Notes: a model not told the origin generated them from the sequence alone. A DNA stretch of 64,000 nt from an uncultured Candidatus Saccharibacteria bacterium (GCA_964532425.1 CAZHIA010000001.1:44889-108888); one strand, 5' to 3'; shown: positions 5,612-32,889, numbered from the stretch's first letter. Numbers and translations: made by a program.

Positions 5612-5733
5612 TACAACCTAAGCGTTATCGCGAGTCCGGCGAGAGCACTGGCTCTATGACCCGGCGGCAACCCTGAGTAGCCCGGCTATTCGATGGGTGC
5701 CCCATCCAGCCCATTAGTAATGGGAAAGATGAT
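5612..5733 (+). ncRNA. SAM-I (S-box) riboswitch
   Basis: TTATCgcGAG...GGCAACC...GGGTGCCCCATCCAGC...AAAGATGA matches the S-box consensus blocks. Lies directly upstream of metK. Confidence 0.75.
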
Positions 5734-5744
5734 TTGATTTTGCG

Positions 5745-5776
5745 CTCAAACCCTTTCCCGCGAAAGGTTTTTTGTT
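5745..5776 (+). terminator. riboswitch expression-platform terminator
   Basis: CCCTTTC-ccgc-GAAAGG followed by TTTTTTG, abutting the metK start. Confidence 0.6.
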
Positions 5777-5777
5777 T

Positions 5778-6812
5778 ATGTACCAGAGTAAGTTCTATAC
5801 GGCCGAGAATGTGGCCCTCGGGCATCCGGATAAGGTCTGTGATCAGATCTCGGACGCTATTTTAGATGAGATTCTCCGGCAGGATTCAAACGGCCGCGTG
5901 GCCATGGAAGCGTTCGGCAGCCACGGGCTTTTGGTTCTTGGTGGCGAGGTTACGGCTGAGGCTGAGGTTGATTATGAAGCTGTAGCCCGCCGGGTTTATA
6001 GCGATATCGGCTACCATGAGCCGCTGGAGGTGTTAGTTCATATTGCTTGCCAGTCGCCGGATATTGCCCGCGGCGTGGATACGGGCGGCGCTGGTGATCA
6101 GGGAATTATGTACGGCTATGCCACGGACGAGACGCCGGAATACTTGCCGACCGGCGTGGTGCTGGCCAGGCAACTGGCGCAAGGACTGGCGGAACTCGGC
6201 CGCAGCCAGCCGGGGATTGGGCCTGACGGTAAGACGCAAGTAACTATGGAGAACGGCATGGTGTGCCGCGTGCTGGTCAGTTGCCAGCACGGCGAAGGTA
6301 TGGAACTGTCCGAGCTGCGGCAGATGCTCGTCGAGCGAGTAATTGTTCCGGTCTGCGGCAGGTTGCAGGACGGGCAGATCCTGGTCAATCCGACGGGCCG
6401 GTTCGTGCAAGGAGGGTTTGCAGCGGATGCGGGCCTGACCGGCCGCAAAATTATGGTTGATACCTATGGCGGGCTGGCGCCCCATGGCGGCGGCGCATTC
6501 TCCGGCAAGGATCCTTCCAAGGTCGACCGCAGTGCCGCGTACCTGGCGCGCTTAGCCGCCAAACATATGGTATCTGCCGGGCTGGCGCACGAGTGCCTGG
6601 TGTCGGTGGCATATGCCATCGGCCAAGAGCAGCCGCTTATGGTTTCCGCGGTTTCGGAGAGCGGGCAGGATCTTTCGGCGGCAGTGAAGCGGCATTTCGA
6701 TTTCAGGCCGCTGGCAATTATTGAACGGTTAGGCTTGCGCCGGCCAATCTATCGACAAACTGCCTGCTTCGGCCATTTTGGCCGGCCGGGTTTGCCGTGG
6801 GAAGAGTTATAA
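5778..6812 (+). CDS. metK: S-adenosylmethionine synthetase
   Basis: GHPDKVCDQISDA and GGGAFSGKDPSKVDRSAAY motifs. Start taken at ATG 5778; the track calls TTG 5772. Confidence 0.9.
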   Translation: MYQSKFYTAENVALGHPDKVCDQISDAILDEILRQDSNGRVAMEAFGSHGLLVLGGEVTAEAEVDYEAVARRVYSDIGYHEPLEVLVHIACQSPDIARGVDTGGAGDQGIMYGYATDETPEYLPTGVVLARQLAQGLAELGRSQPGIGPDGKTQVTMENGMVCRVLVSCQHGEGMELSELRQMLVERVIVPVCGRLQDGQILVNPTGRFVQGGFAADAGLTGRKIMVDTYGGLAPHGGGAFSGKDPSKVDRSAAYLARLAAKHMVSAGLAHECLVSVAYAIGQEQPLMVSAVSESGQDLSAAVKRHFDFRPLAIIERLGLRRPIYRQTACFGHFGRPGLPWEEL

Positions 6813-9759: not shown

Positions 9760-10052
9760 AAATTACAAATAATATCCAAATTTCAAATTCGAAATTCTGC
9801 AGATTGGATATTGAATATTGTCTCCCTCCAGGAGATCTACCGCAGGTACGAGGTATTAGGAAGTAGTCTCAAAACCTCCTTATGGCGTCATTCTGAGTCC
9901 TGAGTTCGACGAAGGACGAAGAATCTCATGATCGGTAAGAGATACTTCGGTCGTCTGACTCCCTCAGTATGACGCCGGAGAGGGAGTATCCTGGTTTTGA
10001 GACCGCTTCTAGAATAAATCTTAAAATTTGATGCTTGGGATTTGGAATTTGA
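9760..10052 (+). mobile_element. MITE-like element, copy 1 (~293 bp) with a long internal hairpin (GGCGTCATTCTGAGTCCTGAG...CTCAGTATGACGCC) and AT-rich CAAATTTCAAATTC-type termini
   Basis: About 95% identical to the reverse complement of 44737-45032; a partial core copy lies at 37694-37866. Confidence 0.8.
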
Positions 10053-10453
10053 ACGGCGGGCAGCTGCCGCTTGCCCCTACGGGGACCAGGTCTTTGCAGC
10101 GTAGGGGCCGCCGACCCTGCCTGCCGGCAGGCAGGAGGCGTCCTCTCGCACAAAGCCTAAATCCTAAATTTTAAATCCTTAATCCGTATTGATAGCCAGT
10201 CTCTTCAAAACCCGGTACAATGAGAGCAGGCTGTGACTTAATTTTTCTAGTTTCTATTTTTCTATTTATTATGTTGGCAATTATTTTCGGCCTTGTTGCT
10301 ATCGGAATATTCGTCCTGTTTCGGGAGGCGTTTTCGCATGCACCGACTTCGCCGCAGCGGCCAAAGCCGGCCGCTTCGGGTGATGCCCTCGTTCGCTTCG
10401 GCCTCGGGCAGCGCCGCAAGAGTCAGCGCCGATTGCATATAGAAAAGCCGGCC

Positions 10454-11755
10454 ATGGAGTTTAATCCCGAGAACAGCCGGGCTTTGGATTTGCTCGAGAA
10501 TTCCCGCCGCAATATTTTTCTGACCGGGCGGGCCGGGGCGGGTAAATCTACCTTGCTCATGTACTTTCGCGCTACTACCAAAAAGAACGTGGCTGTGGTC
10601 GCGCCGACCGGTGTGGCTGCCATTAACGTGCAGGGCCAGACCATTCATCGCTTCTTCCGCTTTAAGCCGGATATTACGCTCGACAAAGTGCCGAAGTATT
10701 TGGACCGCGACCGGGATCTCTATAAAGAATTAGACACACTGGTCATAGACGAGATCTCCATGGTGCGGGCTGATCTGCTCGATTGTGTGGATGCGTTCTT
10801 GCGTATGCACGGACCGGAACCGGGCAAGGTTTTCGGCGGCGTGCAAATGGTGTTCATGGGAGACTTATACCAATTGCCGCCCGTGGTCAAGGACGAGGAA
10901 GAGGAAATTTTCCAGACGCACTATCGCACGGAGTTTTTCTTTTCCGCCAAGTGCCTGCAGCAGACCACGCTCATTCCGCTGGAACTGACCCGCGTGTACC
11001 GCCAGAGCGATGAAGGCTTTAAGAAAATTTTAAACGACATCCGCGACGGTACAGTCAGTGACCAGGACTTGGCAGTTTTGAACTCCCGCGTTGACCGCGA
11101 TTTTTCGCCTGCACAGGAAGAGGGTATTGTCCGCGTATGGTTGGTACCGACGCGCGCCCAAGCCGCGGAAATTAATGGCTGGCACATGGAACATCTGCCT
11201 GGCGCCATGCGCATGTACCACGGTTCGGTAGAGGGTAGGTTTTCCGAGCGCGACATGCCAACACCGTTGGAATTGGAGTTGAAAGTCGGTACGCAGGTTA
11301 TGCTGCTCAATAACGACAGCAAGGGGCGCTGGGTTAACGGCGACGTGGCCCGGGTGGTAGATTTGCGCCAGGATTTTATCCGCGTCAAGTTCGACGACGG
11401 CACGTTCGATGATGTCGAACGCCATACCTGGGACGCGTTCCGTCATACGCTCGAAAAGGGGAGTAATAAGATTGTCGCGGTTTCCGACGGCAGTTTTACC
11501 CAGTTTCCGGTCAAGCCGGCTTGGGCGTTAACCATCCACAAGTCGCAAGGTAAGACGTATGATCATGTGGCCATCGATTTAAGCCGCGGTACTTTTGCGG
11601 CCGGCCAGGCTTATGTGGCCTTGTCGCGCTGCCGCACGCTTGAAGGTCTTATTTTAAAAACCCCGCTGCGCCGCCATCACGTTATGATAGACAAGGAAGC
11701 CGCGGAGTTCATGAAGGTGGTATCATTTTTAGCGGAGAAGGGACATATCCCCTAA
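10454..11755 (+). CDS. PIF1-family 5'-3' DNA helicase (paralog 1)
   Basis: Walker A GRAGAGKST and the C-terminal TIHKSQGKTYDHVAIDLSRGTFAAGQAYVALSRCRTLEGL motif. Start set at 10454 by alignment with paralog 2. The track's start at 10220 adds a doubtful TM segment that overlaps an AT-rich repeat. Confidence 0.8.
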   Translation: MEFNPENSRALDLLENSRRNIFLTGRAGAGKSTLLMYFRATTKKNVAVVAPTGVAAINVQGQTIHRFFRFKPDITLDKVPKYLDRDRDLYKELDTLVIDEISMVRADLLDCVDAFLRMHGPEPGKVFGGVQMVFMGDLYQLPPVVKDEEEEIFQTHYRTEFFFSAKCLQQTTLIPLELTRVYRQSDEGFKKILNDIRDGTVSDQDLAVLNSRVDRDFSPAQEEGIVRVWLVPTRAQAAEINGWHMEHLPGAMRMYHGSVEGRFSERDMPTPLELELKVGTQVMLLNNDSKGRWVNGDVARVVDLRQDFIRVKFDDGTFDDVERHTWDAFRHTLEKGSNKIVAVSDGSFTQFPVKPAWALTIHKSQGKTYDHVAIDLSRGTFAAGQAYVALSRCRTLEGLILKTPLRRHHVMIDKEAAEFMKVVSFLAEKGHIP

Positions 11756-11837
11756 ATCACCGCTGAAGGTGCGCTGATTACGACGCTGAAAGGTCGCTTA
11801 TGTAGGGGCGGCCATTGGCCGCCCTGTCCGTGATTCA

Positions 11838-11865
11838 GTAGGGGACGGTCGCGACCGTCCCGTAC
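11838..11865. repeat. REP-like palindrome (family E): GTAGGGGACGGTCGCGACCGTCCCGTAC. Related copies at 11797-11822, 11937-11965, 21590-21613, 22897-22924, 46565-46590, 50870-50899 and 51115-51144.
   Basis: Near-perfect palindrome with the GTAG head typical of RAYT-mobilised REPs; eight copies in the window. Confidence 0.8.
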
Positions 11866-11983
11866 GGGATTCAGATCATTTTATCCAAATAAGAGCGTAT
11901 CAGAGTTCATTTCACACTGAATGATTGCATATATAGAGGCGGCCAATGGCCGCCCTATCCGTGAACCAGGAACTATAATAACA

Positions 11984-12026
11984 AAAAAACGTCCCGGCTG
12001 CTTGCGCAGTCGGGACGTTGTTGTTT
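11984..12026. terminator. bidirectional terminator
   Basis: AAAAAAA-ACGTCCCGGCTG...CAGTCGGGACGT-TGTTGTTT. Confidence 0.7.
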
Positions 12027-12033
12027 GGCCTGC

Positions 12034-12951
12034 TCAGTCTTCCAGATCAAGCAGGGCTACAATGCGGTTGTCGAGGGACGGGTGCGTGGAAAGCAGGTCG
12101 TCCGGGTTCGGATCAGCGGTACAGAGGAAGCCGAACGCAGCGGCTGTGGCAGCTGAAGCTATGTGCGGTCGCCGGCAGACCTTTTTTAAGGCCGACACCA
12201 GAGGCCGCCCCGAACCCATGATGCGCGCGGAGGTTGCATCTGCCGCATATTCGCGCTGCCGCGAAACGAACATCTGCAACACCACGGCCAGGCCTCGTCC
12301 GACGAGGTAGAGGAGTACGCCTATCAACAAGGCGACAATCAGGGCCCATCCGCTGCCCTTGCGGTCGTCATCGTCGCTCGAACCTCCATACGGCGAGATG
12401 CGAAGCAGGAGCCAGCCGGTGAAGGCCATCATCATGACCGAGATGGTCAGCGCAGTGGAGACTAGGATGTCCTTGTTCACGATGTGGCCGGCTTCGTGCG
12501 CCATGACCGCGGAGAGCTCTTCATCGGTCAAGCCGCTAATGATTCCTTTGGTGGCGGCAACGGCCGAAAAGTAGGGGATGCCCCAACCAAAGGCCATGGC
12601 GTTCATGCCATCATCAGGAATGAGGTAGATGCGCGGGCAGGGCTTGGCCAGCATCGGAGTAGCGCGCAATACCGCATCCCAGAGCTTGGGATTTTCCTCC
12701 CGGACGTAAATCCGTTTGGCTCCCAACGAGATGACCACCAGCCATTCGTTGAATACGAGCATGAGTACGCCAATAATGCCGGCGCCCCACGCGCCATACC
12801 GGAAGTAATTCAGGTAGCCGTGGGCAAAGGTTGCCGTGAGCCAGTAGCACAGCCACCAGAACAGGCCTATGAGCCCGACAGCCAGAACGAACGAGAGCCA
12901 GCTGCGAACCCAGACAGCGAGTACGCGTTCCAAGCGCACCTTTGTACGCAT
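12034..12951 (-). CDS. M48-family zinc metalloprotease (HtpX-like)
   Basis: HEXXH motif (MAHEAGHIV) and TM helices. Start at 12951, preceded by AGGAGG; the track's longer N-terminus is rejected. Confidence 0.75.
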   Translation of the reverse strand: MRTKVRLERVLAVWVRSWLSFVLAVGLIGLFWWLCYWLTATFAHGYLNYFRYGAWGAGIIGVLMLVFNEWLVVISLGAKRIYVREENPKLWDAVLRATPMLAKPCPRIYLIPDDGMNAMAFGWGIPYFSAVAATKGIISGLTDEELSAVMAHEAGHIVNKDILVSTALTISVMMMAFTGWLLLRISPYGGSSDDDDRKGSGWALIVALLIGVLLYLVGRGLAVVLQMFVSRQREYAADATSARIMGSGRPLVSALKKVCRRPHIASAATAAAFGFLCTADPNPDDLLSTHPSLDNRIVALLDLED

Positions 12952-13022
12952 TGTGTATTTCCTCCTGAAGTTGAATAGGTACGATTCTTGCAAACTAGGT
13001 ATAGTACTAGATTTTGTCTTAT

Positions 13023-13051
13023 TTGTCAAGAGTATGAAAGAGGCATACAAT
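13023..13051 (+). promoter_or_regulatory. sigma70-like promoter upstream of radC
   Basis: TTGTCA, 17-nt spacer, TACAAT. Confidence 0.55.
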
Positions 13052-13072
13052 AGGGGCAAGAAAAGTTATATT

Positions 13073-13119
13073 TGTGTCATTCCGGAATCCGCCTCTTGCG
13101 GATATCCGGAATCTACACA
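13073..13119. repeat. hairpin repeat (family A): TGTGTCATTCCGGAATCC...GGATATCCGGAATCTACACA. Other copies at 16109-16156 and 24387-24455.
   Basis: Three copies sharing the GTCATTCCGGAATCC arms with variable loops. Confidence 0.75.
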
Positions 13120-13138
13120 TGCTTAGTCTCGAAACCAA

Positions 13139-13801
13139 ATGCCAATCAAAATGTTAGAGAGAATGTTACAACCACGCGAACGGCTCATGAAGTACGGTCC
13201 GGGGCGGCTTTCTGATGCCGAACTTCTCGCAATCATGCTCCGCACCGGGCCCAAAGGGTGCAATGTGGTTGAGCTTTCAAAGAAGCTGCTGAAAAAATAT
13301 CCGGACGCAAAACTGGCCCAAGCCAGCGTCCAGGAATTGTCCGAAGTACACGGCCTTGGCCCAGCCAAGGCCTGCGAGCTGTCTGCCTGTTTTGAACTGG
13401 GCAGGCGGATGCTCAAGGACAAGCAGTCCGTGCTCATTCTTTCCCCGCGCGAGGTGTGGGATCAGATGCAGGATATTCGCAACCACAAGAAGGAACACTT
13501 TGTCGTGTTCTTTTTGGACACCCAGAACCAGGTGGTCAAAAGGGAAGTGGTGAGCATCGGCACGCTGAATGCCAGCCTCATTCATCCGCGCGAGGTTTTC
13601 GAGCCAGCAGTGCGCTTTCTGGCCGCACATGTTATTGTCTCACACAATCATCCGTCAGGAAGTTTGGAGCCCTCGGACGAGGACCTGCGCATCACTAAGC
13701 GTCTTTGTGATGCGGGAAAGCTTTTGGGCATTGAACTGCTCGATCATGTCATTGTCACCGCATCCGGTTATGCAAGCTTCAAGGAGAAAAATCTGTTATG
13801 A
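13139..13801 (+). CDS. radC: RadC-like JAB-domain protein (UPF0758)
   Basis: N-terminal HhH region and JAMM motif region ...HVIVSHNHPSGSLEPSDED. Confidence 0.85.
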   Translation: MPIKMLERMLQPRERLMKYGPGRLSDAELLAIMLRTGPKGCNVVELSKKLLKKYPDAKLAQASVQELSEVHGLGPAKACELSACFELGRRMLKDKQSVLILSPREVWDQMQDIRNHKKEHFVVFFLDTQNQVVKREVVSIGTLNASLIHPREVFEPAVRFLAAHVIVSHNHPSGSLEPSDEDLRITKRLCDAGKLLGIELLDHVIVTASGYASFKEKNLL

Positions 13802-13812
13802 TGGTATAAGAG

Positions 13813-13843
13813 CCTATCCATCCTATCCATCTTATTCATCCTA
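13813..13843. repeat. period-9 tandem array (CCTATCCAT x3-4) directly after the radC stop and upstream of the PIF1-2 start
   Basis: cctatccat cctatccat cttattcat cc... Confidence 0.8.
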
Positions 13844-13865
13844 GAGGCCTTATTCCCTTTATTCC

Positions 13866-15968
13866 ATGTCCGAAGACAATTCTCCTCTTTACACGAAATC
13901 CTATTACGAAGAAGTCCGTAAAATCCACCCCCGCATGGGCAAGAAGTGGACTGCGGACGAAGACCAACAGCTTAAGAATGCCTACCTGCAATTCAAGGCG
14001 CAGCCGTCGGCGAATTTTGACGTGTTCCTGCAGGAACTGGTCGAGCAGTTCGGCAGGGCTTCGGGCGGCATTAAGGCAAGGTTAGCTAAATATTTTGAGG
14101 ACGTCCCGGGTTGGGACTATGGCCGCGATGCGTTCCGGCAGGAACAGCTCAATAAGGAGGCAGAGTCAGCCATTCCCAAAGACGACGAGGAGGTGCTGGT
14201 TCGGGCGTACCGCTTGTATGAAGAATCAAAAAATGAGACGTACATGGCCTTTTTACGGCGCATGTCGGAACGCCTTGGAAATATTGAGGGGAGGCTTATA
14301 ACGCACCGTTTATCGCAATTGGTCGGCGAGGTAAAAAAGTACAATAAGGAAGATGTAGGGGCGGCCAGTGGCCGCCCGCACCCAGGGAGTGATCGCGAAA
14401 AAAATACTCCCGACGTCTCAGATATCGACTTTTCTGGCAACCTTGAAGCAGGCGAGGCCTTGCGCCTTATGGAGCAGACCCGGGAAAATCTGTTTTTGAC
14501 CGGAGAGGCTGGAACCGGGAAATCGACCCTGCTGCAGTTCTTCCGCTATACCACCCAAAAGAACGTGGTGGTGCTCGCTCCGACCGGGGTGGCTGCTTTG
14601 AATGTGGAAGGCCAGACCATTCATTCGTTTTGCGGGTTCGGTCCGGATATTACGGTGCACAAGGTCAAGAAGCTAGGCCCATGGGCGCCCAAGCGCAAGC
14701 TGCTTAATAAGCTCGATGCGATTATTATAGACGAGATCTCCATGGTCCGCGCTGATCTGCTTGATTGCGTGGACAAGTTTTTGCGCATGAACGGGCCGAC
14801 TGGGACGCAAGCCTTTGGTGGCATTCAAATGATTTTCATCGGTGATCTTTATCAACTCCCGCCAGTATCCGCCGAAAGGCCTGTTGGCCAATCAGGCGGA
14901 CCCGCCACAATGTCCCGTTTTGGCGGGGCTTTGGGCGGGGAGAAGGGTTTTTATGGTGATCCTCTCCTGTCCCAATACGCCTCTCCTTATTTTTTTGATG
15001 CCCTTGCATATAAGCAGACGAAGTTCCACCACATCGCCCTCAAGCAAATGTACCGGCAGAAGGACCGGGTGTTCATCGACGTGCTGAATGCGGTGCGCAA
15101 CAATGCAGCCATGCAGGAACATTTGACCGTCTTAAACCAGCGCGCGCAGACTGCGGGTGCCAAGTTCACGTTCGAGAAATTTGCAATTTATTTAACTACT
15201 ACGAACCAACGCGCGCGGCAAGTGAATAATTTTTTCATTGAGCGCTTGAAGGGAGAGCTGAAGACTTTTCAGGGGCGCACTGCCGGAACCTTTGAGGACC
15301 GAGAGCTGCCCACAGACTTGAATTTGCAAATCAAGGTCGGCGCCCAAGTCATGATGCTCAACAACGACCGCAAGAAGCGCTGGGTCAATGGCACTATGGG
15401 GAAGATAGTTGCCATAGGTTTTGGTAATACCGATGTTGAGCAGGCCCGCGGCCTGCCCTCCCGGATGGAGAATGGTAGTGTGGTTTCTTCTCCCCAGGCG
15501 TGGGAAGATGCCCCGCAGGGGCAGAGAGGTCGAACCCTGGAAGCTGAAGATCAATCTCCCGAACTCACCTACGAACCCATCTCTCCATATGACTACCGCC
15601 CGCAATCTTCTGGCATGGTGGTAACCGTGGAATTGGAAACAGGGGAGACCGTAGACGTGACGCCGTTCACCTGGGAGATGCACAAGTTCGTGCTCGACAA
15701 GGAAACGGAGAAAATAGACATTCAGACCACGGGCACGTTCACGCAATACCCGTTCAAGTTGGCTTGGGCCGTGACCATACACAAGGCCCAGGGCAAGACG
15801 TTCGACAAGGTGTATGTGGATCTTTCCACCGGCACCTTCGCGCACGGCCAGCTCTACGTTGCCCTCTCGCGCTGCCGCACTCTGGAAGGTCTCTTCCTCC
15901 GCCGTCCCATCACCCCCGCCGACATCCTCCTCGACCAGCGCATTGTCCAATTTCTGAATTCGTTATAA
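13866..15968 (+). CDS. PIF1-family DNA helicase (paralog 2) with an ~200-aa N-terminal extension containing a Myb/SANT-like motif, plus two internal insertions
   Basis: Core ~65% identical to paralog 1 (GEAGTGKST ... TIHKAQGKTFDKVYVDLSTGTFAHGQLYVALSRCRTLEGL). N-terminus has GKKWTADEDQQLKNAYLQF...GGIKARL. Confidence 0.8.
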   Translation: MSEDNSPLYTKSYYEEVRKIHPRMGKKWTADEDQQLKNAYLQFKAQPSANFDVFLQELVEQFGRASGGIKARLAKYFEDVPGWDYGRDAFRQEQLNKEAESAIPKDDEEVLVRAYRLYEESKNETYMAFLRRMSERLGNIEGRLITHRLSQLVGEVKKYNKEDVGAASGRPHPGSDREKNTPDVSDIDFSGNLEAGEALRLMEQTRENLFLTGEAGTGKSTLLQFFRYTTQKNVVVLAPTGVAALNVEGQTIHSFCGFGPDITVHKVKKLGPWAPKRKLLNKLDAIIIDEISMVRADLLDCVDKFLRMNGPTGTQAFGGIQMIFIGDLYQLPPVSAERPVGQSGGPATMSRFGGALGGEKGFYGDPLLSQYASPYFFDALAYKQTKFHHIALKQMYRQKDRVFIDVLNAVRNNAAMQEHLTVLNQRAQTAGAKFTFEKFAIYLTTTNQRARQVNNFFIERLKGELKTFQGRTAGTFEDRELPTDLNLQIKVGAQVMMLNNDRKKRWVNGTMGKIVAIGFGNTDVEQARGLPSRMENGSVVSSPQAWEDAPQGQRGRTLEAEDQSPELTYEPISPYDYRPQSSGMVVTVELETGETVDVTPFTWEMHKFVLDKETEKIDIQTTGTFTQYPFKLAWAVTIHKAQGKTFDKVYVDLSTGTFAHGQLYVALSRCRTLEGLFLRRPITPADILLDQRIVQFLNSL

Positions 15969-15970
15969 AT

Positions 15971-16033
15971 CCTATCCATCCTATTCATCCTATCCATCTT
16001 ATCAATCCTATCCATCTTATAAATCCCATTTCA
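15971..16033. repeat. period-9 tandem array (7 units: CCTATCCAT, CCTATTCAT ...) directly after the PIF1-2 stop
   Basis: Seven consecutive 9-bp units; this array is the source of the spurious NPIHPIHPIH ORF. Confidence 0.85.
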
Positions 16034-16180
16034 CCCCTTCTTCCCCTTGGCTTCCATTAACCCCCCTTTACCCCCTTAAACCCCTTTTCACCCTTTCTTC
16101 CCTCACTCTGTGTCATTCCGGAATCCGAGTGCAGCCGAGGATGTCCGGAATCCAGTTTATTTCCCCATAAATTCTCTTAT

Positions 16181-16208
16181 TTGACAGGAATTTACCCGGT
16201 GCTATGAT
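16181..16208 (+). promoter_or_regulatory. near-consensus sigma70 promoter
   Basis: TTGACA, 16-nt spacer, TATGAT. Confidence 0.6.
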
Positions 16209-16214
16209 GGAAAA

Positions 16215-16302
16215 AACAACAAACATGCCAGTCGAGTCTCCCGTAAATAAAATAATAACTTAAACCAAAGCTCCAAGCCGCCGTTTTCGGCGGCTTTGTT
16301 TT
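16215..16302 (+). ncRNA. candidate small RNA (~85 nt) defined by a promoter and terminator
   Basis: Consensus promoter at 16181-16208. Terminator GCCGCCG-ttttc-GGCGGC followed by TTTGTTTT at 16277-16302. Contains only a 19-codon ORF with no RBS. Confidence 0.4.
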
Positions 16303-16883: not shown

Positions 16884-19718
16884 ATGAGAGTTAGTAAACT
16901 TAATAGGTGTTTATTAGTGTTGGGCTGCTTAGCTCTACTAGGCGGTCAAGTAAGAATAGCGGCGAATGCTACTAGTGCTATTGTAGTCTGTGACCCAGGC
17001 TATAATGCTGGTAACTCTCCTATACAAGGTATTCCTACATATGATTACGGAACGGACGGAATGGTCCGTTTTCATTTTACCTTGGATGGTAATGGCTGGG
17101 CTCCCTCAAATAATTTTGTGGCCGTGTATGGAGAGAATTGTGAGTACCTTTATACAAAAGGTTATACGTACGCAAGTTCAGGTAGTATTCCGCAAGGTGT
17201 AATTCATCTTATGGTGAAAGCGCAAGAAGTAACACCAGGAGGCGGGTGGTATGTGTTCACAGCTTATGACGAGGACACAAACGAACCGGTAGGACTGGGA
17301 GGTATGCCGACCCAAGTAAACGAGCCGTTTGTTAGCTTTGCAATTTTACAGAACCCTAGCTACTACGTGTACAACGGAGCCAAAAGCCCTGCTGTGCCAG
17401 TGAGAGATCCGACACGAATGATTTCTAAGACCCCGGTATTGATTGTGCCAGGGGTGATGGGTACTGAATTAAAGATGGAGGGTGAGTTACTTTGGGTTGA
17501 TCTAGATAGAATGTTGGGTGATGTTGGTGACCAGTTTATGGATAAGTTGCAATTTAAGGAAGATCTTCAACCCGAAAATGAGAGTGTGTCACCAGATCAA
17601 GTAATTGCGCAAAAACCGTTATTTGATTACACGGGCTCTTTGGCTGATGAATTTAAAACCCAAGGGTATACCGAAAATCAGGATCTCTTTACTTTCCCAT
17701 ATGACTGGCGTTACGGGGTAACTGGAGTCGTAGATACTACAACAGGTAAAACAACGGTCGACTTACTGCAGCAAAGAATTGAGGAAATTAGTCAGCAAAC
17801 AGGAAGTTCTCAGGTGGATGTAATCGCACATAGCACTGGTGGCTTATTGGTGAAAAAGTATGTTATGGATCACCCGGATTCTCATCGGATTCGTAAGGCT
17901 GTATTTGTAGGTGTGCCAAACGTCGGCGCTCCCAAAGCCATAAAAACTCTTTTGATGGGGGATGGGTTTGGTATCCCTTGGCTTGCCGACGGAGAAATGC
18001 TAAAACTGTCTCAAAATCTTCCGGTTGTTTATGACCTCATGCCTAGTGCTCAATATTACTCTGTTCATACTAGCCCTATAAACATCCTTTCGGGTAAGGT
18101 TTTTGTTTCCGAGATGAAAAATCTTTCTTATGATGAATCCATTTCTTATTTGACAGAAAAAGGATTGAACATTTCTGCAATAACACAATCGCAGTCATTG
18201 CATTCAAGATCGTTCGATAGTTATGACATGAGGACGGCAGGTGTGGATGTATATAATATTGTCGGGTGTAAATCAGGGACTGTGACGCAAGTGTTGGACT
18301 ACGAACATCAAGACGGATCCCATATTAGATATGACGTGTATGAAGAAGGGACAGGTGATGGAACAGTACCGCTCGAGAGTTCAACTTATTTGCCAGTAAA
18401 CGATGACCATAAATTTTATGCGTTAAAGACAGAGCATGCGAAAATGTTGAGCCAGGATGGTGTTCGCCAGACAATTGTTAATGTTGTGTCCGGAGCCAAT
18501 CTTGCAGTCAGTGATAAAGCTGTTACCTCAGACATTGGAAAGTGTAAGTTGAAGGGGAAGGCTGTGGCTATATATAGTCCAGTTGATATTCAAATTTCCG
18601 ACCAATTTGGTAATAAACTAGGACTCGCGGAGGATGGGAGTATACAAAACACAATTCCCGGTGCGGATTTTGAAATCATGGGTGAACACAAGTATGCATT
18701 TTTGCCCGATGAGGATGGTGAAGTATATTCTTTAAATTTAAAAGGTACCGGGACCGGGCTCTTTACCGTGAAAGTTGATGATATTGATGGTTCGGTGATA
18801 GGCTCAAAAATCTTTGCGAGTCTCACCGTTACCCCTTCGCTAGTGGGTACCTTGTCTTTAACTGGGGACACTAAGATGGATTTGGACACGAATAATGATG
18901 GTTCAGTGGACCAGGAACTAACACCTTCAACACTTTCAAACCCCTCCCAATCCCAAGACTATCTTCCTCCCATCTCCACCTCCACCCTTTCTGGCATTAT
19001 GGGACAGGCGGGGTTTTATAGGAGCGAGGTGGTGGTGGCGCTGAATGCGACGGATACGGTGGTGTCGGGACTTGAGGATCAGACTTCCGGTGTTTTGGAC
19101 GTGCGCTATGCGCTGGACGACCATTCATCCAATCCATCCTATTCTTCCTATGCCAGCCCTATCACTGTTTCCACCGAAGGTCCTCACACCCTCTCGTTCT
19201 ATTCCGTGGACCGGGCGGGGAATAGGGAAGCGGTGCAGACGATTAATTTTACCATCGACAAAACCGCGCCAGAGGTTTCTTTGCAGTTTGACCAGAATGC
19301 AAAGGATCTGGTTTTCAGCGGCATCGACAATTCTCCGGTCTCGGTCAGCGACAAGGACGACATTATTACCGTAACCGATCAGGCCGGCAATGCCACAGTT
19401 ATGAAGCTCAAAGACAAGAACCGCAAGCGCTCGCTGAAGGCTGAAATTAAATCCATTAGCTACAACGGGCAGGTTGCGGATCTTTCTAAGAACAGCATGG
19501 CGTTCTCCTGGGCCTATGACAGAAAGGACAAAGACAAGCTTGTCTTGCTTTCGCAAATCGTGACTGCGAAAAAAGACTACCTCGTCTCAGCCATCTACAA
19601 TGGCAAGTCTACGGTGCTGCTTGGCCGTGACGCTTCGGGCAAAATAAAGAAAACTCTCCCCGGCCTGACTCTCCTCAAAATTGCCACCTCCACCGGCGAC
19701 TTGAATTGGAGTTATTAG
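16884..19718 (+). CDS. secreted LCAT/PGAP1-like alpha/beta hydrolase, fused through an S/T/P linker to a chitobiase-C-like Ig domain and a C-terminal region
   Basis: Signal peptide. PVLIVPGVMGTELK is LCAT-like. Nucleophile elbow VIAHSTGGL. A YYSVDRAGNRE-type beta-sandwich motif. The 5' 2 kb is AT-rich and the 3' 0.8 kb is GC-rich. Confidence 0.65.
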   Translation: MRVSKLNRCLLVLGCLALLGGQVRIAANATSAIVVCDPGYNAGNSPIQGIPTYDYGTDGMVRFHFTLDGNGWAPSNNFVAVYGENCEYLYTKGYTYASSGSIPQGVIHLMVKAQEVTPGGGWYVFTAYDEDTNEPVGLGGMPTQVNEPFVSFAILQNPSYYVYNGAKSPAVPVRDPTRMISKTPVLIVPGVMGTELKMEGELLWVDLDRMLGDVGDQFMDKLQFKEDLQPENESVSPDQVIAQKPLFDYTGSLADEFKTQGYTENQDLFTFPYDWRYGVTGVVDTTTGKTTVDLLQQRIEEISQQTGSSQVDVIAHSTGGLLVKKYVMDHPDSHRIRKAVFVGVPNVGAPKAIKTLLMGDGFGIPWLADGEMLKLSQNLPVVYDLMPSAQYYSVHTSPINILSGKVFVSEMKNLSYDESISYLTEKGLNISAITQSQSLHSRSFDSYDMRTAGVDVYNIVGCKSGTVTQVLDYEHQDGSHIRYDVYEEGTGDGTVPLESSTYLPVNDDHKFYALKTEHAKMLSQDGVRQTIVNVVSGANLAVSDKAVTSDIGKCKLKGKAVAIYSPVDIQISDQFGNKLGLAEDGSIQNTIPGADFEIMGEHKYAFLPDEDGEVYSLNLKGTGTGLFTVKVDDIDGSVIGSKIFASLTVTPSLVGTLSLTGDTKMDLDTNNDGSVDQELTPSTLSNPSQSQDYLPPISTSTLSGIMGQAGFYRSEVVVALNATDTVVSGLEDQTSGVLDVRYALDDHSSNPSYSSYASPITVSTEGPHTLSFYSVDRAGNREAVQTINFTIDKTAPEVSLQFDQNAKDLVFSGIDNSPVSVSDKDDIITVTDQAGNATVMKLKDKNRKRSLKAEIKSISYNGQVADLSKNSMAFSWAYDRKDKDKLVLLSQIVTAKKDYLVSAIYNGKSTVLLGRDASGKIKKTLPGLTLLKIATSTGDLNWSY

Positions 19719-19727
19719 TCTTATACG

Positions 19728-19772
19728 TCCTATTTGTCCTATTAGACCTATCTGCCCTATAGGTCCTATTCA
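19728..19772. repeat. period-9 tandem array (5 units, GTCCTATTn-like) directly after the hydrolase stop
   Basis: tcctatttg tcctattag acctatctg ccctatagg tcctattca. Confidence 0.75.
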
Positions 19773-24344: not shown

Positions 24345-24561
24345 CTGTAGTATTTCCTCTCCTTGTCCAAGGAGAGGTGGAATGAGGTAATCCCCATTGT
24401 GTCATTCCGACCTACGACAGTGTCCGCCGTAGCTTTACGCGAAGGCTGGAGCCGGAATCCATGCCATACAGAACATCCTACCCGCCCATTTGGCGGGTTT
24501 TTTAAATGGGTGTAAAATACTTATAGAATGGCTGTTTTTGATAGCTTAATTACAGAAATGC

Positions 24562-27507
24562 ATGAGAATAACAGACTGCCACGCTAAATATTTTGCTTAC
24601 GAGTTGACTAAGCGGTGTTCGTCTGATAGTTTAGAAAAATTATCTTCTACTTTATCAAACGCGCAAGTCGATCTAAATCCGCACCAAATTGAAGCGGCTC
24701 TTTTTGCGTTCCGCTCACCATTATCAAGAGGTGCAATTTTAGCCGACGAAGTGGGCTTAGGCAAGACCATTGAAGCCGGTCTGGTGTTGTCCCAAAAATG
24801 GGCGGAGCGTAAACGTAATCTACTGCTAATAGTACCCTCAAGTTTGCGCAAACAGTGGAATGCGGAATTACAGGAGAAGTTTTTTTTGCCCTCGACAATT
24901 TTAGAAACCAAAACATTTAATCAGTATATCAAAGATGGAAACCTAAATCCGTTTATCCAAGAAGACAAAATAATAATTTGTTCTTATCACTTTGCTCGTT
25001 CCAAGGCGCCTTATATTAAACAGACTAAATGGGACCTGGTAGTAATTGATGAAGCTCATAGGCTACGCAATGTCTATAAGACCAGCAATAAAATCGCTAA
25101 AGAGATTAAAACTACACTGGCTGATTTTCCAAAAATCCTCTTAACGGCAACCCCACTACAAAATTCCCTTCTCGAACTTTATGGTCTTGTTAGTATTATC
25201 GATGACCATGTGTTTGGTGATTTGAAAAGCTTTAAAGCCAACTACGCAAGAGTTTCCCGGCAGCAAGATATCTACGAAAGCGAGGTCGGCTTAGTAGAAC
25301 CAAAGCAGGAGATGTTTTCAGACTTGCGGGACCGACTAAAAACTATCTGCATCAGAACGCTTAGGCGGCAGGTACTGGAATATATCAAATATACCAAGCG
25401 TATCCCTTTAACCCAGGACTACGTTCCGACTGAACAGGAAATTGAGTTATATAACGGCATGTCTGCGTATTTACAAAGACCCAGACTTTTTGCCCTACCT
25501 TCCAGCCAGCGCCAACTCATTACTCTTATTTTACGCAAATTACTTGCTTCTTCGTCTTTTGCCATTGCTAGCACACTCAATGGCCTGGTATATAAATTAT
25601 CTAAACTGATTGAAGAAGCCGAGAAGCAGAAGGCTTCAGCTCAAGATGCTGATATTGCTGGAATTGACCAAAACTTTGAAAACTTCGAAGATGTCTCTGA
25701 TGAGTGGATCGATGATGAAGAAGAGGAAGAAACCGGGGCTGATAAGAAGAGTGTTATTTATACCGAAGAAGAGATCGCTTTAATGAAGGAAGAAAAAGCT
25801 GAACTGGAAAAATATCGGGAATTGGCAAAAAAAATCTGGACCAATTCCAAAGGGGATGCTCTGCTGATTGCTCTGCAAAAAGGCTTCGAGATGACCGAAG
25901 ATCTTGGAGCCAAGAAGAAGGCCATCATTTTTACAGAATCGACAATAACCCAAAATTACCTGTTAAACTTGCTTTCTGAAAATGGTTACAAAGATAAAAT
26001 TGTACTCTTTAATGGCTCCAATAATGATGACAAGTCAAAGCAGGTTTATGCCGACTGGATCAAAGCCAATAAGGACACGGATAAAATAACCGGCTCTAAG
26101 ACGGCTGATATCCGCGCTGCGCTGGTAGAGTATTTCCGTGATGATGCGGAGATTATGATAGCAACTGAAGCTGCCGCTGAAGGTGTTAACCTACAATTCT
26201 GCTCCCTGCTTATAAATTATGATTTGCCATGGAATCCTCAAAGGATTGAACAGCGCATTGGTCGCTGTCATCGTTATGGACAAAAGCACGACGTGGTGGT
26301 TATTAACTTCGTAAACCGTAAAAATGCCGCTGATCAGAGAGTTTACGAACTATTGGACCAAAAGTTTAGCCTATTCAAAGGTGTGTTTGGTGCAAGCGAC
26401 GAAGTACTTGGCAGTATTGAATCCGGGGTAGATTTTGAAAAGAGAATCGCTGATATTTACCAGACTTGCCGCACTGAAGAAGAGATTAATACAGCATTCG
26501 ACAACCTGCAGAAGGATATGGATGAAAGCATCCAGGACAGCCTACGGGAAACCAGGCAAAAATTATTAGAAAACTTCGATACCGAAGTACACGAAAAGCT
26601 AAAAGTTAATCTAAAGGAAACTCAGGCCTGTCTTGATACCTTTGAACACTGGCTTTGGGACATTACCAGATATTATCTCAAGGAAAATGCGGATTTCTCC
26701 GAGCATGAGTACTCATTTACCTTAAAAAATAATCCTTTCCCCAAGGAGTCTATTGACGCTGGTCCTTACAGGATTGGTAAGAATATTGAAGATGCTCACA
26801 TATACCGTCCTGGTCACCCGTTGGCACAAAGGATATTAAACCAAGTTAAATTAAAACCTATCGAGGAAGCAGAGGTTATATTTGATTATTCCAACAATCC
26901 AACCATCGTTTCAGTATTGAAACCACTGGTAGGTAAAAGCGGAGTGATGAAAATTTCTAACTATACAGTCGAAGCTTTTGAGGCCGAGGATAATATTATT
27001 GCCTCTGCTATCGATGAATCTGGAGAAGCTATTAACCCCGAGGTTGTGAAAAAACTTTTTTCTTTGTCGGCAGAACATAAGAAGTCAGCATTAGTACCGC
27101 CGGATGTTAAAACTCACCTTGAAAAAATTGAGCAGGAAACGGTTGCTGTAACATCCACTAATATTGCCGAACGCAATAGCACTTTTTTTGACAATGAAGT
27201 CGATAAACTTGAAAAGTGGGCGGACGACGTTAAAAAATCTTTAGAACTGGATCTAAAAAAACTGGATATTGAGATTAAAGCGTCCAAAACAAACGCAAAA
27301 AAAATCGTAAACTTGGAAGATAAGCTAAAAACACAGCGAGAAATTAAAGAAATGGAGAAAAAAAGGAACGAAATGCGAAAAAAGCTTTATGATGCTCAGG
27401 ATGAAGTGGAAGAAAAAAAAGAAGAACTTATAAATAAAGTCGAGGCACAATTGCACCAGAGATCGCATTTAGAACCACTATTTACGATTTACTGGAGAGT
27501 GGTTTAA
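24562..27507 (+). CDS. SNF2-family helicase (SNF2_N plus HELICc) with a C-terminal coiled-coil extension; first gene of the low-GC island operon
   Basis: LADEVGLGKTIEAG (motif I), DEAHRLRN (motif II), and ...GVNLQFCSLLINYDLPWNPQRIEQRIGRCHRYGQKHDVVVINFV (motifs V and VI). The C-terminus has heptad-like KE-rich repeats. Confidence 0.85.
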   Translation: MRITDCHAKYFAYELTKRCSSDSLEKLSSTLSNAQVDLNPHQIEAALFAFRSPLSRGAILADEVGLGKTIEAGLVLSQKWAERKRNLLLIVPSSLRKQWNAELQEKFFLPSTILETKTFNQYIKDGNLNPFIQEDKIIICSYHFARSKAPYIKQTKWDLVVIDEAHRLRNVYKTSNKIAKEIKTTLADFPKILLTATPLQNSLLELYGLVSIIDDHVFGDLKSFKANYARVSRQQDIYESEVGLVEPKQEMFSDLRDRLKTICIRTLRRQVLEYIKYTKRIPLTQDYVPTEQEIELYNGMSAYLQRPRLFALPSSQRQLITLILRKLLASSSFAIASTLNGLVYKLSKLIEEAEKQKASAQDADIAGIDQNFENFEDVSDEWIDDEEEEETGADKKSVIYTEEEIALMKEEKAELEKYRELAKKIWTNSKGDALLIALQKGFEMTEDLGAKKKAIIFTESTITQNYLLNLLSENGYKDKIVLFNGSNNDDKSKQVYADWIKANKDTDKITGSKTADIRAALVEYFRDDAEIMIATEAAAEGVNLQFCSLLINYDLPWNPQRIEQRIGRCHRYGQKHDVVVINFVNRKNAADQRVYELLDQKFSLFKGVFGASDEVLGSIESGVDFEKRIADIYQTCRTEEEINTAFDNLQKDMDESIQDSLRETRQKLLENFDTEVHEKLKVNLKETQACLDTFEHWLWDITRYYLKENADFSEHEYSFTLKNNPFPKESIDAGPYRIGKNIEDAHIYRPGHPLAQRILNQVKLKPIEEAEVIFDYSNNPTIVSVLKPLVGKSGVMKISNYTVEAFEAEDNIIASAIDESGEAINPEVVKKLFSLSAEHKKSALVPPDVKTHLEKIEQETVAVTSTNIAERNSTFFDNEVDKLEKWADDVKKSLELDLKKLDIEIKASKTNAKKIVNLEDKLKTQREIKEMEKKRNEMRKKLYDAQDEVEEKKEELINKVEAQLHQRSHLEPLFTIYWRVV

Positions 27508-27516
27508 GCAAGGTTT

Positions 27517-28176
27517 ATGCACCCCCAATTATATTATCAACACCATTTTTATCCATTATGCTATGGTATTCTACAATCCCATGAGTCTTTTTACTTAACC
27601 TCTGAATTTTGGACCGCCATGGCAGTTGTGGTGGCATTGATTACACCTTGGATTGTAAATTGGCTGAGTAACAAACCTAAGTTGAGTAAAATAAAAGCGA
27701 TAGGAACGAGGGTAGTGGACCAGACAAATTATGATCATGATGAGACTCTAAGAGAAGCATATACTCTCCATGTTGGCAGGCTAGTGTTAAAAAATGAGGG
27801 GGAATACACAGCTAGATCAGTAGAAGCATACTTGGAAAGGATTGTATACGAAGGTGAAGAGAGGAAGGATTTTCTACCCATGCCTCTTTCTTGGACCCAT
27901 GGACAACTTAATAAAGATGGAATTACAGTAAGAGATATCTATCCTAATCAAGCAGTTTATTTGGATGTTTTCAACCATTTTTTTAATCCTTATATTGTTG
28001 GTGATAGGGAAACTAAATTTGCTGTTGGGACTGGCGAGAACTTCGAAAATCTATCTTATGTCAATACTGGAAAATCAGATGTATATATAAAGTTTTATCA
28101 AGAAAGTGGACAGGTTAATACAGTACATTTAATCAGTAATTGGGATAATGGGGTCCCTGAATTATCAATTGTATGA
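27517..28176 (+). CDS. hypothetical protein (219 aa, one N-terminal TM), sitting between the SNF2 gene and the methyltransferase
   Basis: Starts 10 bp after the SNF2 stop. Its stop overlaps the mod start by 4 bp. No recognisable domain. Confidence 0.5.
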
Positions 28177-32520: not shown

Positions 32521-32785
32521 AATAGATAACATACCAGGTACCTTTTTTATAATAATGTAAGGTTATGGCTAATTTCAATTTAACAGTAGGAGTGTTAAAG
32601 GAGGTGAAGGGCGTTGTTTAGATTTATCGAGAGAACAGCCGTACAATATTTTGTTGGGAACTACTAGAAGAGGGAAAGGGGTATTGTATAATCATTTATA
32701 TAGTCAGTTGGCCAGGCAAAACTCGCCGGAGGAGGTGGGTTTGTTTTTATAGAGGGTATAAAACTCAAAGTTATTTACCATCTGC

Positions 32786-32875: not shown

Positions 32876-32889
32876 CCAATAAGTAATGC

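What the first reader, a model, noticed from the sequence alone, without database searches (positions are those of the whole stretch)
10454..16033. Tandem PIF1 helicase paralogs flanking RadC and an HtpX-like protease; one paralog has a Myb/SANT-like N-terminal fusion
Two PIF1-family helicases share about 65% identity in the core (10454-11755 and 13866-15968). They flank an HtpX-like protease on the opposite strand and a RadC JAB-domain gene.

Paralog 2 has an ~200-aa N-terminal extension with a SANT/Myb-like motif (GKKWTADEDQQLKNAYLQF...IKARL). It also has two internal insertions.

PIF1 and RadC are typical cargo of mobile elements. A Myb-like DNA-binding domain fused to a bacterial PIF1 is unusual. 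The CCTAT period-9 arrays sit directly after radC (immediately upstream of paralog 2's start) and directly after paralog 2's stop, which suggests a specific DNA-recognition partnership.
Basis: partly seen in the sequence, partly recalled or inferred. Interest (0 to 1): 0.7.

Follow-up and report, generated by a model that had tools for sequence, protein, structure and literature searches.

The report
Myb-like PIF1 helicase family in Patescibacteria
The four genes are real, and the longer PIF1 helicase belongs to a conserved, apparently undescribed family from tiny candidate-phyla bacteria that carries two Myb-like three-helix domains at its front end, but the short CCTAT repeat arrays beside it are not its conserved partners.

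Summary
The gene calls are correct: two PIF1-family helicases, an M48/HtpX-like protease and a full-length RadC. The two helicase cores are 45-49% identical, not 65%.

Paralog 2 (pifB, 13866-15968) has a ~190-aa N-terminal extension. It folds confidently (pLDDT 88.6) into two tandem three-helix bundles. Structure and sequence-profile comparisons point to a Myb/homeodomain-like fold, with repeat 1 closer to Myb, but it scores below Pfam's Myb threshold.

This fusion is not a one-off. Most of the 120 best database hits, from Doudnabacteria and other Patescibacteria, share it at 50-60% identity. radC lies within about 1.5 kb of pifB in 7 of 17 distinct species loci.

Paralog 1 (pifA) really starts at 10271.

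I found no integrase, transposase, tRNA or defence-system match, so the mobile-cargo reading is unsupported.

The period-9 CCTAT arrays are real. A third one follows an unrelated lipase gene. No other homologous locus has one within 200 nt of pifB, and related genomes carry a copy-number-variable version (2, 4 or 8 units) in the leader of an antitoxin gene. The proposed array-helicase partnership is therefore not supported.

The parts
10271..11755 (+). pifA: a PIF1-family SF1B helicase of 494 aa. It has an N-terminal transmembrane helix (MLAIIFGLVAIGIFVLF, nt 10271-10330) and a basic linker motif (FGLGQRRKSQR).
   Evidence: Pfam PIF1 92.6 bits. The identical public protein P0205 is 494 aa. The transmembrane helix and motif are conserved in P0206-P0209, P0211 and the L004/L007 orthologs. 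Nineteen of the 120 best homologs have an N-terminal hydrophobic 19-mer.
11988..12019 (.). GC-rich hairpin between the convergent pifA and M48 genes, terminator-like. GTAG-type REP-like palindromes lie nearby at 11802-11824 and 11933-11955.
   Evidence: Terminator scan; repeat families D4, D6 and I2.
12034..12951 (-). M48 / HtpX-like zinc metalloprotease. It is 305 aa as called in the public record; the longest ORF runs to 13059.
   Evidence: Pfam Peptidase_M48 92.5 bits. NCBIfam HtpX models 145.6 bits, below the equivalog cut-offs. Public gene call of 305 aa. HEAGH motif in the translation.
13001..13051 (.). Divergent promoter-like hexamer pairs between M48 and radC. The plus-strand site is TTGTCA-17-TACAAT.
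   Evidence: Consensus scan only, 10 of 12 matches on each strand. Inferred, not shown.
13139..13801 (+). radC: full-length RadC family protein with an N-terminal UPF0758/HhH domain, a JAB domain and an intact HNHPSGSLEPSDED motif.
   Evidence: Pfam RadC 145.7 bits and UPF0758_N 86.2 bits. NCBIfam PRK00024 248 bits against a cut-off of 180. Lies within about 1.5 kb of pifB in 7 of 17 distinct homologous loci.
13813..13843 (+). Array 1: 3.4 units of CCTATCCAT in the 64-nt radC-pifB spacer.
   Evidence: TRF score 48; sequence; repeat family D1.
13866..15968 (+). pifB: a 700-aa PIF1-family helicase with an N-terminal tandem Myb-like module.
   Evidence: Pfam PIF1 94.3 bits. Most of the 120 best database hits span the N-terminal region at 46-62% identity. 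Helicase motifs are invariant across 29 sequences.
13935..14105 (+). pifB Myb-like repeat 1 (residues 24-80; helices 30-44, 51-62, 66-76), followed by the invariant FxDVPGWDY motif.
14175..14333 (+). pifB repeat 2 (residues 104-156; helices 105-121, 126-136, 142-153). It is a diverged copy of repeat 1 and is absent from the short-form homologs.
   Evidence: hhalign of repeat 1 against repeat 2: probability 95.7%, E 1e-8. Short forms of about 148 aa before the P-loop.
14355..14377 (+). GTAG-type REP-like palindrome (GTAGGGGCGGCCAGTGGCCGCCC) lying in frame inside the disordered linker of pifB (residues about 164-171).
   Evidence: The search pattern matches here and at the intergenic copy at 11802 with 0 mismatches, against 0 expected by chance. 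The linker has pLDDT below 50.
14439..15968 (+). pifB helicase core (residues about 192-700). Two disordered, length-variable insertions are encoded at 14859-14960 and 15426-15611.
   Evidence: BLASTP against pifA; alignment A1; full-length AF2 model with pLDDT below 50 for residues 332-365 and 521-582.
15969..16126 (+). Array 2 (5.8 units of ATCCTATCC, 15969-16020), a second period-9 array (CCCCCTTTA, 16057-16096), and a 160-nt C-rich, G-poor tract directly after the pifB stop codon. The opposite strand holds a canonical G-quadruplex motif at 16071-16102.
   Evidence: TRF. It is the longest C-rich/G-poor tract found in the window and the only long one outside a gene. G-quadruplex motif scan.
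19720..19769 (+). Array 3: five or six CCTAT cores at 9-nt spacing with variable spacers. It starts 2 nt after the stop codon of the LCAT-like lipase gene (16884-19718).

Best explanation
This is a chromosomal gene neighbourhood of a Doudnabacteria-like member of the Patescibacteria (candidate phyla radiation). It holds a canonical radC and two anciently diverged PIF1-family SF1B DNA helicases, each with a different N-terminal addressing module.

pifA carries a single transmembrane helix followed by a basic linker. That would hold the motor at the cytoplasmic face of the membrane.

pifB carries two tandem Myb-like three-helix bundles, joined to the motor by a disordered linker of about 35 aa. 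I infer that this module binds nucleic acid through the basic third helix of repeat 1, and so tethers or targets the 5'-to-3' motor. This would be analogous to the WYL domain of Thermotoga elfii Pif1, or to the Myb-like DNA-binding domain of Timeless acting with the helicase DDX11. radC and pifB are probably co-transcribed.

The CCTAT period-9 arrays are a separate feature. They are copy-number-variable simple repeats on the sense strand of untranslated regions. They may act at the RNA or transcription-termination level, and they are not conserved recognition sites of the helicase.

Shown: the gene identities, the fold, the family conservation, the synteny and the lack of array linkage. Inferred: DNA binding by the N-terminal module, membrane insertion of pifA, co-transcription, and any role for the arrays.
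For: - Gene identities: Pfam and NCBIfam.
- Active-enzyme features: Walker A, Walker B and the GDLYQLPPV region are invariant in 29 homologs.
- Family conservation: most of the 120 best hits span the N-terminal region and come from Doudnabacteria or Patescibacteria. Eighteen genome loci come from Doudnabacteria, Parcubacteria, Jacksonbacteria and MAGs labelled 'Saccharibacteria'.
- Distant relatives of repeat 1 are again fused to SF1 helicases (P0143, P0147), or sit in proteins with weak Myb or GcrA hits.
- Synteny: radC lies within about 1.5 kb of pifB in L004, L005, L006, L007, L008, L009/L010 and L012. A pifA ortholog lies 2-3 kb from pifB in L004 and L007.
- pifA transmembrane helix.
- No link between arrays and pifB.
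- No defence-system match in PADLOC, and no phage or plasmid match to the N-terminal domain.
Against: - Three-helix bundles of this kind can bind proteins rather than DNA, as SANT domains do.
- Repeat 1 as a whole is about neutral (mean pI 6.9).
- The full-length model gives no reliable domain docking (pTM 0.49).
- radC linkage is seen in only 7 of 17 distinct loci.
- In this one genome, arrays do sit on both sides of pifB, and I could not count arrays over the rest of the genome.
Confidence: 0.6

Rival explanations
1. One reading: the Myb-like domain of pifB specifically recognises the CCTATCCAT period-9 arrays that flank its gene, for autoregulation or as loading sites.
For: Arrays lie 22 nt upstream of the pifB start and directly after its stop. 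All three arrays in the 64-kb window fall within 6 kb of pifB. Related genomes L009, L010 and L012 have CCTATCCGT arrays 1.1 kb upstream of pifB. The CCTAT core is kept while the spacers vary in array 3, as expected for a protein-binding site.
Against: The 17 distinct homologous loci hold 0-1 CCTAT within 200 nt of pifB, and none has an array there. The L009/L010/L012 arrays lie in the leader of a phd/yefM antitoxin gene, behind its own promoter and operator, with three genes between them and pifB. L001 and L007 have the same promoter without an array. Copy number varies (2, 4 or 8 units), as in slippage-prone repeats. Array 3 follows an unrelated lipase gene. The N-terminal domain is conserved where the arrays are absent.
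Confidence: 0.07
2. The cluster is cargo of a mobile element or an anti-phage defence island.
For: PIF1-like and RadC-like genes are frequent on integrative elements and phages (background knowledge). A toxin-antitoxin pair and a DNA methyltransferase lie next to the L001 and L007 homologs. An identical 19-nt sequence (TGTGTCATTCCGGAATCCG) brackets radC-pifB at 13073 and 16109 and occurs nowhere else in the window. The wider gene context differs between genomes.
Against: No tRNA gene in the window. No integrase or transposase among the genes scanned between 0.6 and 27.5 kb. The flanking genes look like ordinary chromosomal genes: metK with a SAM riboswitch, an ABC transporter, a P-type ATPase, a lytic transglycosylase and a GalT-like enzyme. 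G+C content matches the flanks. radC is the full-length chromosomal type and passes the NCBIfam equivalog. PADLOC gives only generic SF1-core matches and nothing for radC or M48. Phage and plasmid records match only the helicase core, at 42% identity or less. Orthologs diverge in step with their genomes, at about 60% identity.
Confidence: 0.1
3. The N-terminal three-helix module is a SANT-like protein-interaction or autoinhibitory domain, not a DNA-binding domain. It would dock on a partner (RadC, SSB or the replisome) or on the helicase's own 2B domain.
For: Repeat 1 is overall near neutral (mean pI 6.9). The most conserved element, FxDVPGWDY, lies outside the recognition helix. The Myb score is below threshold. 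N-terminal domains of yeast Pif1 and Rrm3 act by regulation and partner binding (PMC6628001; bioRxiv 10.1101/163188). Conserved adjacency to radC would fit a partner relationship.
Against: The third helix of repeat 1 is strongly basic, with invariant R64 and R72. The closest structures are almost all DNA-bound domains. The module as a whole is mildly basic (pI 8.7).
Confidence: 0.25
4. The arrays, together with the C-rich tract after pifB, are transcript-level signals, such as Rho-loading (rut-like) sites or 3'-UTR elements that become exposed once ribosomes stop.
For: All three arrays begin 0-11 nt after the stop codon of a plus-strand gene, with the C-rich strand as the sense strand. The stretch 15967-16126 is the longest C-rich/G-poor tract in the window. 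No intrinsic terminator is predicted after pifB before 16275. Background knowledge: rut sites are C-rich, G-poor and unstructured.
Against: In L009, L010 and L012 the array is in a 5' leader, not at a gene end. Other gene ends in the window lack such tracts. I did not check for rho in this genome. Array 1 is only 31 nt long.
Confidence: 0.2

Closest known systems
Thermotoga elfii Pif1 (TePif1), with its C-terminal WYL domain
   Same: A bacterial PIF1 core fused to a small accessory nucleic-acid-binding module that modulates unwinding (bioRxiv 10.1101/163188). The nearest non-Patescibacteria relatives of pifA are PIF1+WYL proteins.
   Different: Here the accessory module is N-terminal, is a tandem Myb-like helix-turn-helix rather than a WYL domain, and is joined by a disordered linker. 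pifA has a transmembrane helix instead of a WYL domain. No biochemistry exists for either protein.
Bacteroides Pif1 (BaPif1) and Thermus oshimai Pif1, the core-only bacterial PIF1 helicases
   Same: The same SF1B motor, with the Walker A, Walker B and GDLYQLPPV region and a 2B/SH3 domain.
   Different: Those proteins lack N-terminal modules. pifB also has two disordered insertions, one after motif III and one in the 2B region.
Human Timeless DNA-binding domain (PDB 6TAZ, 6T9Q), which works with the helicase DDX11
   Different: Timeless is a separate polypeptide from its helicase, is eukaryotic, and partners an SF2 helicase. All the similarity scores are weak. G-quadruplex recognition by pifB is untested.
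c-Myb R1-R3, and Reb1/Rap1-type Myb repeats
   Same: Three-helix bundle with a conserved first tryptophan, an acidic EED stretch in helix 1 and a basic third helix. hhalign gives 77% for repeat 1.
   Different: The second and third core aromatic residues are Phe and Tyr/Phe rather than Trp. Pfam scores are below threshold. Repeat 2 has no direct Myb similarity. A long helix (residues 85-102) separates the repeats.
Chromosomal RadC (YicR/YsxA type)
   Same: Full-length architecture and an intact JAB motif. It passes the NCBIfam equivalog.
   Different: I found no report of its conserved linkage to PIF1 helicases.

Membership tests
PIF1 family (SF1B helicase) | Pfam PF05970 above the gathering score | tested here: met
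   pifA 92.6 bits and pifB 94.3 bits against a cut-off of 25.9.
PIF1 family (SF1B helicase) | Intact Walker A, Walker B and the Pif1 signature region (…FGGIQ…GDxxQLPPV) | tested here: met
   GEAGTGKST, DEISM and FGGIQMIFIGDLYQLPPV are invariant or nearly invariant in 29 homologs. pifA has GRAGAGKST, DEISM and FGGVQMVFMGDLYQLPPV.
PIF1 family (SF1B helicase) | ATP-dependent 5'-to-3' unwinding | not testable with these tools
   Needs biochemistry.
Myb/SANT DNA-binding domain (Pfam PF00249) | Pfam score at or above the gathering threshold | tested here: not met
   16.3 bits against 24.4, E 0.011, and only residues 26-44 are matched.
Myb/SANT DNA-binding domain (Pfam PF00249) | Three-helix bundle with a helix-turn-helix | tested here: met
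Myb/SANT DNA-binding domain (Pfam PF00249) | Three regularly spaced tryptophans forming the core | tested here: inconclusive
   W28 is invariant. The later positions hold F51/F54 and Y76/F77 instead of Trp.
Myb/SANT DNA-binding domain (Pfam PF00249) | Sequence-specific double-stranded DNA binding by helix 3 | not testable with these tools
   Only the charge is known: helix 3 has pI 11.3.
RadC family | NCBIfam equivalog, UPF0758 N-terminal domain and JAB motif HxHPxGxxxPSxxD | tested here: met
   PRK00024 248 bits against 180. Pfam RadC plus UPF0758_N. HNHPSGSLEPSDED in the translation.
HtpX (M48 protease) | M48 domain with HEXXH; HtpX equivalog score | tested here: inconclusive
   The M48 domain is met (92.5 bits, HEAGH present). 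The best HtpX equivalog scores 145.6 bits against a cut-off of 355. It is HtpX-like but not an equivalog.
Mobile element or defence island | Integrase, transposase or relaxase; tRNA or att borders; a known defence gene set | tested here: not met
   No tRNA gene. None of these functions among the genes scanned between 0.6 and 27.5 kb. PADLOC gives generic helicase-core hits only.
Cognate binding-site array (iteron or operator) of the adjacent DNA-binding protein | Co-occurrence of array and gene in homologous loci | tested here: not met
   No array within 200 nt of pifB in any of the 17 distinct homologous loci. Arrays are present only in L009, L010 and L012, in another gene's leader.

The most novel reading that the evidence does not exclude
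The most novel reading not excluded: radC, a membrane-anchored PIF1 (pifA) and a PIF1 targeted by Myb-like domains (pifB) form a lineage-specific DNA-handling module in Patescibacteria.

pifA would pull or unwind incoming DNA at the membrane, taking the role that ComFA plays in other competent bacteria. pifB would be directed by its Myb-like repeats to particular DNA structures or repeats. Candidates are the G-rich strand of the CCTAT and C-rich arrays, or the G-quadruplex motif at 16071-16102 beside its own gene. That would parallel Timeless and DDX11 in eukaryotes.
Probability: 0.08. Interest if true: 0.7.

Novelty: new variant of a known kind. Interest (0 to 1): 0.4.

Why it matters
PIF1 helicases are studied mainly as bare motors or through the disordered N-termini of the yeast enzymes. 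How bacterial PIF1s are directed to their substrates is largely unknown.

A compact, well-folded tandem Myb-like module fused to PIF1 would give a tractable system for asking how accessory domains address an SF1B motor. So would a sister paralog tethered to the membrane, with both linked to radC in organisms with very small genomes.

It would also hint at what the still-enigmatic RadC does. If the module is simply a generic DNA clamp, the finding is a useful annotation for a domain that Pfam does not cover, and no more.

Tried and rejected
- An exact look-up of the window's pifB translation found no contig. The look-up for pifA returned only a 4-kb read assembly. The rest of this genome therefore could not be scanned for arrays.
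- The afdb50 fold library was unavailable.
- Foldseek against the PDB gave no significant hit. The best E was 0.5, although the top ranks were double homeodomains and Timeless.
It showed only that the motif is not specific to pifB.
- G-quadruplex idea. The window has 7 canonical motifs against 1.5 expected, and 3 lie in or beside the PIF1 genes. Two of those are in coding sequence, including the glycine-rich P-loop codons of pifA. Homologous loci show no consistent motif near pifB, so I treat this as post hoc.
- Literature searches for Pif1 with Patescibacteria, RadC or helix-turn-helix accessory domains found nothing on this fusion. The library is limited, so this is absence of evidence only.
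It should be repeated against curated profiles.

Full report
**1. What is in the sequence**

The ORF list and Pfam scans confirm four genes.
- A PIF1-like helicase ending at 11755 (pifA).
- A minus-strand Peptidase_M48 gene at 12034-13059. It is called as 305 aa, 12034-12951, in a public record.
- radC at 13139-13801, with RadC JAB plus UPF0758_N domains.
- A 700-aa PIF1-like helicase at 13866-15968 (pifB).

NCBIfam places radC above the RadC equivalog cut-off (248 bits against 180). It places the protease below the HtpX equivalog cut-offs, so the protease is HtpX-like rather than HtpX proper.

BLASTP of the two helicases gives 45% identity over 327 aa and 49% over 112 aa.

pifB has about 190 extra N-terminal residues and two insertions relative to pifA. 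In a 29-sequence alignment those insertions vary in length and are low in complexity. In the full-length AlphaFold2 model they are disordered, with pLDDT below 50 for residues 332-365 and 521-582.

**2. The N-terminal extension of pifB**

Pfam gives only a sub-threshold Myb_DNA-binding hit (E 0.011, 16.3 bits against 24.4, residues 26-44).

An alignment of 36 N-termini (A2) gave an AlphaFold2 model with mean pLDDT 88.6. It shows:
- a first three-helix bundle (helices 30-44, 51-62, 66-76);
- a long connecting helix (85-102);
- a second three-helix bundle (helices 105-121, 126-136, 142-153);
- a disordered linker (about 157-190) before the helicase.

The two bundles are homologous to each other (hhalign probability 95.7%, E 1e-8).

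Foldseek is not significant, but it ranks DUX4 double homeodomains and Timeless first.

A sequence profile of A2 against all PDB chains returns only four weak hits. All four are c-Myb or Timeless (E 0.24-1.8).

hhalign of repeat 1 against five Myb repeats gives 77% probability over 42 columns. Against three homeodomains it gives 0.2%.

The third helix of repeat 1 is strongly basic (mean pI 11.3, with invariant R64 and R72). The whole module is mildly basic (pI 8.7).

Conclusion: a Myb-like fold is supported, and there are two repeats rather than one. Formal membership of Pfam Myb is not met, and DNA binding is inferred, not shown.

**3. The fusion is a conserved family**

A database search with pifB returned an identical protein from a 334,850-nt NCBI contig. 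Most of the 120 best hits span the N-terminal region at 46-62% identity. The few named ones are Candidatus Doudnabacteria or Patescibacteria.

Two forms exist:
- a long form, with about 205 residues before the P-loop and both repeats;
- a short form, with about 148 residues and repeat 1 only.

In a library clustered at 50% identity, the N-terminal profile finds only 16 clusters at E of 1e-10 or better, so the family is compact. Weaker hits to repeat 1 include other SF1 helicases with the domain at their N-terminus (P0143, P0147). They also include proteins with sub-threshold Myb or GcrA matches.

Literature searches found no description of this fusion.

**4. Genomic context and synteny**

A scan of species-representative genomes with the motif FxDVPGWDY gave 18 loci. 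They come from MAGs labelled Doudnabacteria, Parcubacteria, Jacksonbacteria or 'Saccharibacteria'.

tblastn of the window's proteins against these loci shows two things.
- radC lies within about 1.5 kb of pifB in L004, L005, L006 (the same place as L001), L007, L008, L009/L010 and L012.
- A pifA ortholog (62-63% identity) lies 2-3 kb from pifB in L004 and L007.

pifA is as close to PIF1(+WYL) helicases of Atribacterota, Thermodesulfovibrio and others (50-54%) as it is to anything else, and closer to them than to pifB. The two helicases are therefore old paralogs, not a recent tandem duplication.

Around the window's cluster I found metK behind a SAM riboswitch, an ABC transporter, a P-type ATPase, a lytic transglycosylase and a GalT-like gene. 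I found no tRNA, integrase or transposase.

PADLOC gives only generic SF1-core matches. Phage and plasmid collections match only the helicase core, at 42% identity or less, and never the N-terminal domain. The mobile-cargo reading is not supported.

**5. A missed feature of pifA**

The public protein identical to pifA is 494 aa and starts at window position 10271. Its first 17-20 residues are uniformly hydrophobic (MLAIIFGLVAIGIFVLF). They are followed by a basic linker with the motif (L)AKFGLGxRRKxQR.

Both features recur in its closest homologs and in the L004 and L007 orthologs. Nineteen of the 120 best hits have an N-terminal hydrophobic 19-mer.

The sister helicase is thus most likely anchored to the membrane, with the motor in the cytoplasm. 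The positively charged residues follow the hydrophobic helix, and by the positive-inside rule (background knowledge) that places the motor inside the cell. This is an inference.

**6. The CCTAT arrays**

The arrays are real.

There is a third array, at 19720-19769. It starts 2 nt after the stop codon of an LCAT-like lipase gene and keeps the CCTAT core with variable spacers. All three arrays lie on the sense strand, 0-11 nt after a stop codon.

The stretch 15967-16126 after pifB is the longest C-rich, G-poor tract in the window.

In the 17 distinct homologous loci, CCTAT occurs 0-1 times within 200 nt on either side of pifB, and no array is present there. Arrays occur only in L009 (4 units), L010 (8 units) and L012 (2 units).

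In those three loci the CCTATCCGT units lie in the leader of a phd/yefM antitoxin gene. They sit just after a conserved promoter with a palindromic operator (CCACTTGAC…ACATGTACACTATTATGTACATGTG). They are 1.1 kb and three genes upstream of pifB. L001 and L007 have the same promoter without an array.

L009 and L010 are two contigs of one MAG, so copy number varies within a population.

What the arrays do remains open. A transcript-level role such as Rho loading or a UTR element is a reasonable guess (one search shows no intrinsic terminator after pifB before 16275). It is untested.

**7. Verdict**

The Myb-like idea is supported and extended. The mobile-cargo and array-partnership ideas are not supported.

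The core result is a conserved and, as far as I could find, undescribed Patescibacteria subfamily of PIF1 helicases with a tandem Myb-like N-terminal module. In part of the clade it is linked to radC and to a membrane-anchored PIF1 paralog.

I rate it a new variant of a known kind, of moderate interest (0.4).

Noticed in passing
A membrane-anchored PIF1 subfamily exists: 19 of the 120 best homologs have an N-terminal hydrophobic 19-mer.
   Followed up: yes
window 14355-14377; also 11802-11824 and 11933-11955: A GTAG-type REP-like palindrome (GTAGGGGCGGCCANTGGCCGCCC) lies in frame inside the disordered linker of pifB. Intergenic copies form an inverted pair between pifA and the protease gene. 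There are 5 matches against 0 expected by chance.
   Followed up: partly
window 13073-13091 and 16109-16127: An identical 19-nt sequence (TGTGTCATTCCGGAATCCG) occurs twice, each time as the 5' arm of a hairpin element of about 45 nt. The two copies bracket the radC-pifB unit in direct orientation, and there are no others in the 64 kb. A similar 'TGTCATTCC…GGAATC' hairpin follows radC in L001, and related ones lie at window 9885-9930 and after pifB in L016.
   Followed up: partly
window 16071-16102 (minus strand); also 10526-10542 and 14925-14947: Canonical G-quadruplex motifs are enriched in the window (7 against 1.5 expected from a first-order Markov model). Three of the seven lie in or beside the PIF1 genes. 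They are not conserved in homologous loci.
   Followed up: partly
window 16181-16302: A strong promoter-like site (TTGACA-16-TGnTATGAT, 11 of 12 matches) is followed about 70 nt later by a terminator hairpin (16275-16296 plus a T-run). This may be a small RNA of about 90 nt. There is no Rfam match.
   Followed up: no
window 16057-16096: A second, different period-9 array (CCCCCTTTA, about 4 units) lies immediately after the CCTAT array, within the C-rich tract.
   Followed up: no
window 24500-36000: A low-G+C stretch (36-42% against about 50-58% in the flanks) starts with a 981-aa SNF2-family helicase gene (24562-27507) followed by several large ORFs. It may be an acquired island.
   Followed up: no
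window 5622-5735: A SAM (S-box) riboswitch lies directly upstream of the S-adenosylmethionine synthetase gene (5772-6812).
   Followed up: no
L001 10830-10910; L007 6640-6730; L009, L010 and L012 downstream of radC: A conserved promoter with a perfect palindrome over the -10 region (ACATGTACACTATTATGTACATGT) lies ahead of a phd/yefM-type antitoxin gene. It is probably the autoregulatory operator. In three loci a variable CCTATCCGT array (2, 4 or 8 units) is inserted between it and the start codon.
   Followed up: partly
L015 13090-15315: A homolog of the window's LCAT-like lipase (33% identity) also lies a few kb downstream of pifB in L015. This hints at wider conserved gene order.
   Followed up: no
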